A stretch of DNA of 64,000 nt. Source: Escherichia coli (lineage in GTDB: Bacteria > Pseudomonadota > Gammaproteobacteria > Enterobacterales > Enterobacteriaceae). Positions 2,034-2,363 of this stretch are shown here, one piece after another. Every line of letters starts with the position of its first letter. Position 1 is the stretch's first letter. Below the pieces are notes generated by a model. The model saw nothing but the letters and a program-made list of their open reading frames with translations, was not told the origin of the DNA and ran no database searches. The translations under genes were made by a program, and so were the position numbers. Location: assembly GCF_036507355.1 (NCBI RefSeq), contig NZ_AP027877.1; one strand, written 5' to 3'.

Positions 2034-2363
2034 TCACCGCCCATACTCATCTTCCATTCTCCGCTCTTCATCCTCCAGTTGCCGACGCTCCTGATCAAGC
2101 TGGCGCTGGCGATCGTCCAGCTGCCTGCGGCGATCTTCAAACTGGCGGCGGCGGTCGTCATATTGTCTGCGCCGATCGTCGCTCACTTCACGCTGCCAGC
2201 CGTCGTCGCGCGAATCGTCATAGTCTCGCCCACGGTCAGGGTTATAAGCGTCATTAATCGCCTGCTGAATATTGCCAATGGTGTCGTCGATAATATCGGC
2301 CTGGGCCGGTACGGTGGTCAGCGTGAGCAGGGTGAATAAAAGAAATAGCGGAAAGCGTTTCAT
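2034..2363 (-). CDS. yjdP: small secreted low-complexity protein YjdP
   Basis: 109 aa ORF with N-terminal signal peptide and highly charged repetitive D/R/Q/E C-terminal half. Confidence 0.7.
   Translation of the reverse strand: MKRFPLFLLFTLLTLTTVPAQADIIDDTIGNIQQAINDAYNPDRGRDYDDSRDDGWQREVSDDRRRQYDDRRRQFEDRRRQLDDRQRQLDQERRQLEDEERRMEDEYGR

What the first reader, a model, noticed from the sequence alone, without database searches (positions are those of the whole stretch)
2034..2363. yjdP encodes a secreted protein with an extremely charged, repetitive D/R/Q/E low-complexity tail
After a typical signal peptide, the mature protein is dominated by repeats such as DDRRRQ[YF][DE]D and RRQLDDRQRQLDQERRQLEDEE. 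It is predicted to be an intrinsically disordered or coiled-coil periplasmic protein of unknown function; the repeats could vary in copy number between strains.
Basis: seen in the sequence. Interest (0 to 1): 0.3.

Follow-up and report, generated by a model that had tools for sequence, protein, structure and literature searches.

The report
YjdP: small secreted charged-helix protein
The finding is the already-named but uncharacterised gene yjdP, which encodes a small exported protein whose charged repeat tail is most likely a rigid, conserved helix rather than a floppy tail, and which appears to be switched on by the Rcs cell-envelope stress system.

Summary
Window 2034-2363 (- strand) is a 109-aa ORF that scores 148 bits (cut-off 90) against NCBIfam NF041443, 'DDRRRQL repeat protein YjdP'. 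It occurs in 5,404 of 5,426 complete E. coli genomes and in about 25 genera of Enterobacteriaceae.

It is a real gene: dN/dS is about 0.15, it has a Shine-Dalgarno site, and 74 of 76 orthologues keep an A-x-A signal-peptide cleavage motif.

The tail is a true 7-residue repeat. It is position-specifically conserved (Q74, L82, D83, Q86, L89, D90 and R93 invariant). It is packed with i/i+3 and i/i+4 opposite-charge pairs. AlphaFold2 predicts one helix (residues 54-108, block-mean pLDDT 79-97). 'Disordered' is therefore disfavoured, and a canonical coiled coil is not shown.

Heptad number does vary (95, 102, 109 and 123 aa) but rarely: the main 102-aa allele is in 16-18 of 5,405 E. coli records. 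A different repeat proved hypervariable: a 9-bp FTL unit inside the signal peptide of ST131-type strains.

A near-consensus RcsB box about 72 nt upstream of the ATG is conserved in 80 of 80 loci. Published RNA-seq shows about 10-fold induction by a LolCDE inhibitor. Together these suggest direct Rcs control.

Biochemical function remains unknown. This is a known, low-to-moderate-interest gene.

The parts
2034..2363 (-). yjdP coding sequence (109 codons plus the stop at 2034-2036)
   Evidence: ORF list. NCBIfam NF041443 at 148 bits against a cut-off of 90. RefSeq annotation at the same place in E. coli. dN/dS 0.15 over 77 orthologues.
2298..2363 (-). Signal peptide, residues 1-22 (MKRFPLFLLFTLLTLTTVPAQA), with predicted cleavage after A22
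   Evidence: n/h/c-region layout read from the sequence. A-x-A precedes the invariant D23 in 74 of 76 distinct orthologues, and signal-peptide length is 19-23. No dedicated signal-peptide predictor was available.
2316..2336 (-). Two imperfect 9-bp units (TTCACCCTG CTCACGCTG ...) encoding FTL/LTL in the signal-peptide core. This is the site of the (TTCACGCTG)n expansion seen in ST131-type strains.
   Evidence: Alignment of the window gene with other alleles. Expanded alleles of 339, 348, 357 and 366 nt.
2235..2297 (-). Conserved N-terminal amphipathic motif of the mature protein, residues 23-43 (DIIDDTIGNIQQAINDAYNPD)
   Evidence: This is the most constrained segment (dN/dS 0.10). D23, D26 and A35 are invariant, and I29, G30, N31, I32, Q33 are at least 90% conserved. 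It is predicted helical with low confidence.
2184..2234 (-). Acidic, variable linker, residues 44-60
   Evidence: dN/dS 0.43. Length and sequence vary between genera. In both AlphaFold2 models residues 41-53/54 have no regular secondary structure, with block-mean pLDDT 51-53 over residues 41-50.
2037..2183 (-). Heptad-repeat region, residues 61-109: DDRRRQY DDRRRQF EDRRRQL DDRQRQL DQERRQL EDEERRM EDEYGR
   Evidence: Lag-7 identity z = 7.8. TRF finds a 21-bp period at 2108-2180. AlphaFold2 places it inside a helix spanning 54/55-108, block-mean pLDDT 79-97. Charge-pair statistics. Invariant Q74, L82, D83, Q86, L89, D90, R93.
2371..2374 (-). Shine-Dalgarno GAGG, 7 nt before the ATG
   Evidence: Read from the sequence. 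A GAGG/GAGA is at the same place in most aligned orthologous upstream regions.
2392..2397 (-). Candidate -10 hexamer TAATGT (TAnnnT is conserved across genera)
   Evidence: The T, A and final T are the conserved columns in the upstream alignment. The generic sigma-70 scan did not call it, because there is no good -35. This is an inference.
2421..2434 (-). Candidate RcsB box TGAGATTCATCCAC. It sits 23 nt upstream of the -10, is centred near -42/-43 of the inferred start, and overlaps the TGA stop of the rpiB remnant.
   Evidence: It matches 7 of the 8 specified positions of TN(G/A)GAN4TC(T/C)NA (PMC7913699). All 80 related loci have a site with at most 1 mismatch, 76 of them at -75..-70 from the ATG, whatever the upstream gene.
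2432..2749 (-). Context only: a degraded rpiB remnant ORF left by loss of the als operon. It is followed by yjcS at 2990-4987 (+).
   Evidence: Only the last ~41 positions of the RpiB model match, at 77 bits against a cut-off of 139. BLAST against K-12 shows an internal deletion and loss of the 5' end. The same junction is found in 1,568 of 5,426 E. coli genomes.

Best explanation
yjdP is a genuine gene specific to Enterobacteriaceae. It encodes an approximately 11-kDa protein that the Sec pathway exports to the periplasm, with the signal peptide cleaved after Ala22.

The mature protein has three parts:
- a short, highly conserved amphipathic helix (residues 23-40);
- a flexible acidic linker;
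- one long exposed helix of about 50 residues (about 8 nm), built from six or seven RRRQL(D/E)D heptads.

The long helix is held straight by a dense ladder of Asp/Glu-Arg salt bridges. It carries a single Leu/aromatic stripe flanked by invariant Gln and Asp. It is electrically bipolar: the N-terminal heptads carry net +1 each and the C-terminal heptads net -2.

The gene carries its own promoter with a conserved RcsB box centred near -42. It is therefore made when the Rcs envelope-stress phosphorelay fires, for example on lipoprotein mislocalisation.

Shown here: gene identity, purifying selection, periodicity, charge pattern, box conservation, and published induction.

Inferred: export, helix formation, direct RcsB control.

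Most speculative: the bipolar helix works by binding, either to itself (an antiparallel pairing fits the charges slightly better than a parallel one) or to a partner or polyelectrolyte in the stressed envelope. On this reading it is a stress-protective periplasmic factor.
For: Identity:
- NF041443 at 148 bits against a cut-off of 90.
- Pfam PF28054 'YjdP' on all relatives.

Real gene:
- dN/dS is 0.15 overall, 0.10 for the N-terminal motif and 0.13 for the heptads.
- Almost all length variants seen are in frame; the exception is the 1-nt frameshift in strain A38.
- Present in 5,404 of 5,426 E. coli genomes and in about 25 genera.

Export:
- The signal-peptide architecture is conserved.

Helix:
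- Two AlphaFold2 runs, with 22 and 76 sequences, give a helix at 55-108 and 54-108, block-mean pLDDT 79-97.
- There are 36 attractive i+3/i+4 charge pairs against 21.1 +/- 3.4 in shuffles, and 2 repulsive pairs against 19.8 +/- 3.3 (0 of 5,000 shuffles).
- The same bias holds in 76 orthologues, with median z of +3.8 and -4.5.
- Seven positions in the tail are invariant.

Regulation:
- An RcsB-box-like 14-mer is conserved in 80 of 80 loci, against a background of 2.3e-4 per position, while the flanks and the upstream gene differ.
- The consensus is taken from PMC7913699.
- yjdP RNA rises 9.5-10.6-fold (10.6 to 100-112 units) with a LolCDE inhibitor, alongside osmB, rcsA, wca, ivy and mliC (PMC5105897).

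Pairing:
- Simple heptad electrostatics give +2.0 for an antiparallel register. A parallel register gives +1.4 for g-e' pairs and -3.5 for a-a' pairs.
Against: - No direct evidence of the protein was found. It is absent from the held supplements of one large proteome study.
- No signal-peptide predictor was available.
- AlphaFold2 tends to draw helices for charged repeats. pTM is only 0.36-0.38, so no tertiary or quaternary arrangement is supported.
- Asp is a weak helix former and is rare in characterised single alpha-helices (PMC5812594).
- The box misses the last consensus base. Sites with at most 1 mismatch are common in a single genome: 54 strand-hits in this 64-kb window. The case for the box therefore rests on conservation.
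- Dependence on rcsB has not been shown. The LolCDE response also involves Cpx and RpoS genes.
- In K-12, yjdP grouped with rpiB in the Crp-2 module table, suggesting read-through from rpiB there.
- The pairing calculation is a crude count and the margin is small.
Confidence: 0.55

Rival explanations
1. The tail is an intrinsically disordered polyampholyte. It would act as a periplasmic 'hydrophilin'-like shield or entropic filler, and would fold, if at all, only on binding.
For: Extreme hydrophilicity (GRAVY -2.28) and 67% charged residues in the tail. Asp-rich sequences are poor helix formers and are rare in known stable single helices (PMC5812594). The linker is clearly flexible. The gene is co-induced with osmotic and desiccation genes.
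Against: Disordered tails usually evolve fast. Here dN/dS is 0.13, and Q74, L82, D83, Q86, L89, D90 and R93 are invariant across about 25 genera. The charge order is non-random in exactly the helix-stabilising register. Block-mean pLDDT is 79-97. Gly is 4 of 87 residues, below the hydrophilin criterion (the criterion is from my own knowledge).
Confidence: 0.2
2. The tail is a monomeric charged single alpha-helix (SAH) that serves only as a rigid spacer of about 8 nm, with no self-association.
For: A dense i/i+4 salt-bridge ladder, no a/d hydrophobic seam, and a single exposed helix in the models.
Against: There is no second domain to space apart. A strict heptad with an invariant Leu stripe is what SAH predictors treat as pointing to supramolecular assembly. 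Arg-only repeats aggregated in model peptides. Asp is rare in SAHs (PMC5812594). The invariant Q-L-D face suggests a specific contact.
Confidence: 0.15
3. YjdP functions with the phosphonate (phn) system, because it lies tail-to-tail with phnP in nearly all genera.
For: phnP ends within tens to a few hundred bases of the yjdP stop in most of the 80 loci. Arg-rich surfaces can bind phosphoryl groups (my own knowledge).
Against: The genes are convergent, so they are not co-transcribed. yjdP has its own conserved stress-type promoter box. No phnP was detected within the fetched flank in at least six loci: L004, L014, L020, L030, L058 and L062. Its induction is by envelope stress, not phosphate starvation.
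Confidence: 0.05
4. The ORF is not translated, or the real product is on the other strand (the 86-aa antisense ORF at 2079-2339 +).
For: No proteomic detection was found. A long antisense ORF exists and is often open in orthologues.
Against: Sense-frame dN/dS is 0.15, with a region-specific pattern. The Shine-Dalgarno site, start codon and signal peptide are conserved. Antisense openness is the expected by-product of a sense composition lacking TTA, CTA and TCA codons, and it drops to 41 codons in some orthologues.
Confidence: 0.03

Closest known systems
YjdP family (NCBIfam NF041443 'DDRRRQL repeat protein YjdP'; Pfam PF28054 'YjdP'; E. coli K-12 WP_000819746.1)
   Same: Same gene at the same chromosomal position (between phnP and rpiB/yjcS). 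It is 109 aa, with 97% identity to the 109-aa cluster representative P0003, and has the same repeat.
   Different: It differs from the K-12 protein by two substitutions (S16T, E49D). In the window the upstream als operon is deleted, leaving an rpiB remnant.
Charged single alpha-helices (SAH / ER-K motifs, e.g. in myosins VI and X, caldesmon)
   Same: A long exposed helix, about 67% charged residues, and a strong excess of i/i+3 and i/i+4 opposite-charge pairs.
   Different: It uses Asp and Arg only (no Lys; Asp is rare in SAHs). It has a strict heptad with an invariant Leu stripe. It is secreted and bacterial, and it does not connect two domains.
Leucine zippers / two-stranded coiled coils, and Braun's lipoprotein Lpp as a periplasmic example
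   Same: Heptad periodicity with Leu every seventh residue. The helix length (about 54 residues) is similar to mature Lpp (my own knowledge for Lpp).
   Different: Only one hydrophobic core position per heptad; the other is Arg, Gln or Glu. There is no lipobox Cys and no C-terminal Lys for peptidoglycan attachment. The oligomeric state is unknown.
Small envelope-stress-induced periplasmic proteins (Spy, CpxP, ZraP; Asr; OsmY)
   Same: Small, Sec-exported, largely helical or low-complexity proteins. yjdP is co-induced with spy, cpxP and osmY by LolCDE inhibition.
   Different: There is no sequence relationship. Pfam and NCBIfam scans gave no hit to those families. No LTXXQ motif. The composition differs: Asr is Lys/Ala/His-rich (my own knowledge).
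RcsB-activated promoters with an RcsB homodimer box (rprA, osmC, bdm, osmB, ytfK)
   Same: A pseudo-palindromic GAGA-N4-TCC box matching TN(G/A)GAN4TC(T/C)NA lies upstream of the start, and the gene is induced under an Rcs-activating condition.
   Different: The last consensus base is C, not A. Neither RcsB binding nor rcsB dependence has been tested. That the -42 position resembles rprA, osmC and bdm rests on my own knowledge, not on a tool result.

Membership tests
YjdP (NF041443 / PF28054) | Whole-protein score above the curated cut-off of the equivalog model | tested here: met
   148.4 bits against a cut-off of 90, covering residues 1-103 and profile positions 1-101 of 101. PF28054 is precomputed on all relatives. 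The local Pfam copy lacks that model.
YjdP (NF041443 / PF28054) | Conserved genomic position, convergent with phnP | tested here: met
   phnP ends at 1997 and the yjdP stop is at 2034. The arrangement is the same in E. coli records and in most of the 80 loci.
Sec-type cleavable signal peptide (SPase I) | Positive n-region, hydrophobic h-region of about 10-15 residues, small residues at -3 and -1, no lipobox Cys, no twin-arginine motif | tested here: met
   MKR / FPLFLLFTLLTLTTV / PAQA|D. A-x-A in 74 of 76 orthologues, and no Cys in any mature sequence. This is a heuristic reading; no dedicated predictor or experiment was available.
Charged single alpha-helix (SAH) | Excess of oppositely charged residues at i/i+3 and i/i+4, and few like-charge pairs | tested here: met
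   36 against 21.1 +/- 3.4, and 2 against 19.8 +/- 3.3. The bias is conserved in orthologues.
Charged single alpha-helix (SAH) | Composition dominated by Glu, Lys and Arg, with Asp rare | tested here: not met
   The mature protein has 20 Asp, 8 Glu and 0 Lys. The criterion comes from PMC5812594.
Charged single alpha-helix (SAH) | Monomeric and helical in solution | not testable with these tools
   Needs circular dichroism and analytical ultracentrifugation or SEC-MALS.
Canonical coiled coil / leucine zipper | Heptad periodicity | tested here: met
   Lag-7 identity z = 7.8. Hydrophobic residues at 68, 75, 82, 89, 96 and 103.
Canonical coiled coil / leucine zipper | Hydrophobic residues at both a and d positions | tested here: not met
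   With Leu at d, the a positions are R, R, Q, R, E, Y in the window and in the family consensus.
CpxP / Spy / ZraP periplasmic stress proteins | Sequence match to the family models (LTXXQ motifs) | tested here: not met
   No such family among the Pfam or NCBIfam hits at E <= 1.
Hydrophilins / LEA-like proteins | Gly above 6% and a high hydrophilicity index (criteria from my own knowledge of Garay-Arroyo et al. 2000) | tested here: not met
   Gly is 4 of 87 (4.6%), although GRAVY is -2.28.
Rcs regulon (direct RcsB target) | RcsB homodimer box TN(G/A)GAN4TC(T/C)NA in the promoter | tested here: inconclusive
   7 of 8 specified bases match at window 2421-2434. The box is conserved in 80 of 80 loci. 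Single-genome matches of this quality are common, however.
Rcs regulon (direct RcsB target) | Induction under Rcs-activating stress | tested here: met
   From the literature only: 9.5-10.6-fold induction with a LolCDE inhibitor (PMC5105897).
Rcs regulon (direct RcsB target) | Dependence on rcsB, and RcsB binding in vitro or in vivo | not testable with these tools
   No such data were found in the papers held.

The most novel reading that the evidence does not exclude
YjdP is a dedicated effector of the Rcs envelope-stress response. Its invariant, bipolar 8-nm helix would bind a specific envelope target. Candidates are cationic antimicrobial peptides or other attacking polycations (as a decoy, analogous to the Rcs-induced lysozyme inhibitors Ivy and MliC), or a component of the RcsF/IgaA sensing path (as feedback). 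The slippage-prone FTL repeat in its signal peptide would tune how much is exported in ST131.
Probability: 0.1. Interest if true: 0.6.

Novelty: already known. Interest (0 to 1): 0.27.

Why it matters
yjdP belongs to the 'y-ome', the set of E. coli genes still without a function. Three results give testable handles on it:
- The tail is a constrained helix rather than junk low-complexity sequence.
- The gene travels with a conserved RcsB-type box.
- It responds about 10-fold to lipoprotein-trafficking stress.

These point to rcsB-dependence assays, biophysics of an unusual Asp/Arg heptad helix, and envelope-stress phenotypes.

The 9-bp repeat in the signal peptide of ST131-type strains is a small but unusual example of a variable-number repeat inside a targeting signal. 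None of this changes current understanding unless a specific target is found.

Tried and rejected
Searches that found nothing:
- Pfam-A scan: only sub-threshold coiled-coil noise (DUF7900 at E = 0.037). The local copy lacks PF28054.
- PADLOC: no defence link.
- PDB by sequence and Foldseek of the model against the PDB: no matches, as expected for a lone helix.
- Rfam on window 1500-3200: nothing.

Regulatory elements that did not hold up:
- Generic promoter scan: it does not call the yjdP promoter.
- Terminator: the only - strand terminator-like hit lies upstream, inside the rpiB remnant. The 36-nt yjdP-phnP spacer folds no better than shuffles (z = 0.27).
- 5'UTR hairpin (GCCAG...CTGGC around the Shine-Dalgarno site in many genera): RNAalifold predicts nothing. 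Pair counts are not above shuffles (77% against 75%, 55 of 500). It is absent in Escherichia. Dropped.

Rejected readings:
- Antisense ORF 2079-2339: a compositional by-product.
- Source-given names 'Skp family chaperone' and 'RNase H-like nuclease' on two clusters: treated as spurious automated labels, because no model supports them.

Literature that led nowhere:
- Laubacher & Ades 2008, Farris 2010, Raivio 2013 and Sturny 2003 are not held.
- 'b4487' has no relevant hit in any paper's main text.
- yjdP is absent from the held supplements of Mori 2021, Bury-Mone 2009, the colicin M study and the 2026 antibiotic transcriptome study.
- CsiR induction lowers yjdP 3.5-fold, with a 'genic' ChIP peak (PMC5217608). 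This was judged peripheral.

Counting limit:
- Heptad variants could not be counted by match coverage, because BLAST joins the pieces. Identity bands with the 102-aa allele as query were used instead.
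Full report
WHAT IS THERE

Window 2034-2363 on the - strand is a 109-codon ORF with an ATG start. A GAGG Shine-Dalgarno sequence lies 7 nt upstream of the ATG. Its product is MKRFPLFLLFTLLTLTTVPAQA|DIIDDTIGNIQQAINDAYNPD-RGRDYDDSRDDGWQREV-SDDRRRQYDDRRRQFEDRRRQLDDRQRQLDQERRQLEDEERRMEDEYGR.

- The protein scores 148 bits (cut-off 90) against the NCBIfam equivalog NF041443, 'DDRRRQL repeat protein YjdP'.
- RefSeq annotates the same gene between phnP and rpiB in E. coli.
- Relatives carry the recent Pfam family PF28054 'YjdP'. The local Pfam copy lacks that model, which is why the Pfam scan returned only noise.
- The window allele differs from the K-12 protein (WP_000819746.1) by two substitutions, S16T and E49D.

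IS THE REPEAT REAL?

Yes.
- In residues 62-109, 26 positions are identical at lag 7, against 7.7 +/- 2.3 in 5,000 composition-preserving shuffles (z = 7.8). Lag 14 gives z = 5.0.
- Tandem Repeats Finder sees the underlying 21-bp unit x 3.5 copies at 2108-2180.
- The mature protein has 20 Asp, 20 Arg, 10 Gln, 8 Glu and no Lys, with pI 4.6 and GRAVY -2.28.

IS IT A REAL, TRANSLATED GENE?

No direct protein evidence was found, and yjdP is absent from the held supplements of one large proteome study. The evolutionary evidence is nevertheless strong.
- The gene is present in 5,404 of 5,426 complete E. coli genomes.
- It occurs in Citrobacter, Enterobacter, Klebsiella oxytoca/grimontii, Raoultella, Kosakonia, Cedecea, Leclercia, Atlantibacter, Kluyvera, Yokenella and other genera.
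- Outside Enterobacteriaceae it is essentially absent: only 52 clusters at 50% identity among 1.84 billion representatives, and the weakest of these are coiled-coil noise.
- Across 77 orthologues, sense-frame dN/dS is 0.15 overall. By segment it is 0.33 for the signal peptide, 0.10 for the N-terminal motif, 0.43 for the linker and 0.13 for the heptads.
- Nearly all length variants seen are in frame. The one exception is a 1-nt frameshift in strain A38.
- The long antisense ORF (2079-2339 +) is a by-product of codon composition and is not consistently open in orthologues.

EXPORT

The N-terminus has a classical Sec signal-peptide layout. An A-x-A motif precedes the invariant Asp23 in 74 of 76 distinct orthologues, and signal-peptide length is 19-23 residues. 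No mature sequence contains a Cys, so it is not a lipoprotein. There is no twin-arginine motif (read from the sequence). This is a heuristic reading, because no signal-peptide predictor was available.

STRUCTURE OF THE TAIL

The tail does not behave like a disordered low-complexity region.
- Conservation is position-specific. Q74, L82, D83, Q86, L89, D90 and R93 are invariant, and most neighbours are at least 90% conserved in 76 orthologues.
- The charge order is exactly the helix-stabilising one. There are 36 opposite-charge pairs at i+3/i+4 against 21.1 +/- 3.4 in shuffles, and only 2 like-charge pairs against 19.8 +/- 3.3 (0 of 5,000 shuffles each). The same bias is seen in all orthologues, with median z of +3.8 and -4.5.
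- Two AlphaFold2 runs, with 22 and 76 aligned sequences, give one helix at residues 54/55-108. Block-mean pLDDT is 86-97 over residues 61-100 and 79-83 for the last block. The N-terminal motif is helical at low confidence, residues 41-53/54 are non-regular, and pTM is only 0.36-0.38.

So a long exposed helix is supported, but no packing or oligomeric state is.

With Leu at heptad position d, position a is R, R, Q, R, E, Y, position e is always acidic, and position g switches from Arg (residues 71, 78, 85) to Glu/Asp (92, 99, 106). The helix is therefore bipolar: net +1 per heptad at the N-terminal end and net -2 at the C-terminal end.

This fits neither textbook class.
- A canonical coiled coil needs two hydrophobic core positions; this helix has one.
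- Characterised single alpha-helices are Glu/Lys/Arg-rich with little Asp. Strict heptads are taken to favour supramolecular assembly, and Arg-only repeats aggregated in model peptides (PMC5812594).

A crude count of interhelical charge contacts slightly favours an antiparallel pairing (+2.0). An in-register parallel pairing scores +1.4 for g-e' pairs and -3.5 for a-a' pairs. This is weak and is an inference only. There are no relatives in the PDB by sequence or by fold.

COPY-NUMBER VARIATION

Alleles of 95, 102, 109 and 123 aa differ by whole heptads, and different 102-aa alleles have lost different heptads. The commonest deletion lies between direct GATCGCCGC repeats.

Such variation is rare. 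With the 102-aa allele as query, only 16 records at >=99% identity and 2 at 95-99%, out of 5,405, match without the 21-bp gap. In two evenly spaced 60-row samples, only the top row — the 102-aa allele itself (H106) — was a heptad-number variant. The six-heptad core is the same in all genera.

Unexpectedly, ST131-type genomes carry yjdP genes of 339, 348, 357 or 366 nt. The cause is a perfect 9-bp repeat, (TTCACGCTG)n, which encodes 3-6 FTL units inside the hydrophobic core of the signal peptide. The four fetched records share identical rpiB and phnP protein alleles, consistent with a single lineage. Five of 60 sampled rows had the expansion in each of two samples. The window has the unexpanded, imperfect form.

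REGULATION

The gene upstream of yjdP differs between lineages:
- rpiB-alsR in K-12;
- an rpiB remnant followed by yjcS in the window and in 1,568 E. coli genomes;
- a hybrid histidine kinase, part of the OI167 island, in EHEC-type strains (PMC10128022);
- unrelated genes in other genera.

Despite this, a block TTGAGATTCCTCCGCTAC is retained about 72 nt before the ATG in every case. It is followed 23 nt later by a conserved TAnnnT.

The 14-mer TGAGATTC(C/A)TCC(G/A)C matches 7 of the 8 specified bases of the RcsB homodimer box TN(G/A)GAN4TC(T/C)NA, which was defined structurally and by gel shift in PMC7913699. All 80 loci have a site with at most 1 mismatch in the 120 nt upstream, and 76 of these lie at -75..-70 from the ATG. 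The background frequency in the same loci is 2.3e-4 per position, which gives 0.025 expected sites per region.

A match of this quality means little in one genome: there are 54 strand-hits in this 64-kb window. The evidence is the phylogenetic footprint.

In the window:
- the box is at 2421-2434 and overlaps the TGA stop of the rpiB remnant;
- the candidate -10 (TAATGT) is at 2392-2397;
- the box centre falls near -42/-43 of the inferred start.

From my own knowledge, that is where RcsB boxes sit at rprA, osmC and bdm. The source papers were not available here.

Independently, RNA-seq in PMC5105897 shows yjdP rising 9.5- and 10.6-fold (from 10.6 to 100-112 expression units) 30 min after LolCDE inhibition. 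It sits in the same table as osmB, rcsA, the wca genes, yjbEFGH, ivy, mliC, spy and cpxP. Lipoprotein mislocalisation is a classical Rcs trigger (my own knowledge).

Dependence on rcsB itself has not been shown. In K-12, yjdP also appears with rpiB in the motif table of the Crp-2 module, which suggests read-through from rpiB where that gene is intact.

WHAT IT MOST LIKELY IS AND DOES

YjdP is a small Sec-exported periplasmic protein made under Rcs-type envelope stress. It consists of a conserved amphipathic N-terminal helix, a flexible acidic linker, and a rigid, salt-bridge-stabilised, bipolar helix of about 8 nm. The invariant Gln-Leu-Asp face of that helix probably mediates self-association or binding to an envelope component.

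The steps from 'helix' to 'binding' and 'protective' are inference. The biochemical function remains unknown.

Rival readings:
- A disordered polyampholyte: probability about 0.2.
- A purely monomeric single-helix spacer: about 0.15.
- A phosphonate-linked role, suggested by the conserved tail-to-tail synteny with phnP, but contradicted by orientation, promoter type and several loci with no phnP in the fetched flank: about 0.05.
- Not translated: about 0.03.

VERDICT

The object is already known and is named for exactly this repeat, so its novelty is 'already known'.

The added value of this check is fourfold:
- evidence that the tail is a constrained helix;
- the rarity of heptad-number variation;
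- the FTL repeat in the signal peptide;
- a conserved candidate RcsB box that makes Rcs-regulon membership directly testable.

Interest is low to moderate.

Noticed in passing
window 2316-2336 (- strand); expanded alleles in L086-L089 (NZ_CP103508, NZ_CP147065, NZ_CP184069, NZ_CP184019): A perfect 9-bp tandem repeat, (TTCACGCTG)n, encodes 3-6 FTL units inside the hydrophobic core of the YjdP signal peptide in ST131-type E. coli. It gives genes of 339-366 nt. About 8% of sampled complete genomes carry it (5 of 60 rows, twice). The window carries the unexpanded, imperfect form.
   Followed up: partly
window 2432-2989: The als (allose) operon is absent. What remains is a 105-codon ORF whose last ~41 residues match the C-terminus of RpiB. 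It has an internal deletion of about 150 bp relative to K-12 and has lost the 5' end. An AT-rich (31% GC) spacer follows, then yjcS. The same junction is in 1,568 of 5,426 E. coli genomes, where RefSeq annotates it as an 'RpiB/LacA/LacB family' protein although it is almost certainly a pseudogene remnant.
   Followed up: partly
window 1998-2033; L001 3099-3244: The phnP-yjdP spacer is only 36 nt in the window, is G-rich on the yjdP strand (GGTAGGCTAGGGTGAGGGG), and has no terminator-like fold. K-12 has about 110 extra bases here, the site of a reported G-quadruplex-hairpin element (PMC5100583). Some database alleles read through the stop codon into this spacer (133-134 aa forms).
   Followed up: partly
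window 34941-34954: A perfect match to the RcsB box consensus (TAAGATTTATCTAA) lies about 57-70 nt upstream of the listed start of a 531-aa ORF (33289-34884, - strand). That ORF carries an EAL-type c-di-GMP phosphodiesterase domain. A second perfect match at 50776-50789 lies inside a 248-aa ORF that has no NCBIfam family.
   Followed up: no
L005, L009, L040, L058 and others, about 15-40 nt upstream of the ATG: In many non-Escherichia genera the yjdP 5'UTR has an inverted repeat, (A)GCCAG...CTGGC(T), that brackets the Shine-Dalgarno GAGA. Covariation is not above controls, and the repeat is absent in E. coli and in the window.
   Followed up: yes
L046, L060, L067 (Pseudocitrobacter): PhnN, PhnO and PhnP in these loci are 91-98% identical in protein sequence to those of the window, far higher than in other non-Escherichia genera (60-84%). 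yjcS lies directly upstream of yjdP, as in the window. This hints at exchange of this chromosomal segment between Escherichia and Pseudocitrobacter.
   Followed up: no
L091 (NZ_CP028738, strain A38): yjdP carries a 1-nt insertion (331-nt match), which causes a frameshift. The annotation pipeline nevertheless calls a shorter 'YjdP' CDS from an internal start. phnP is also frameshifted in this record.
   Followed up: no
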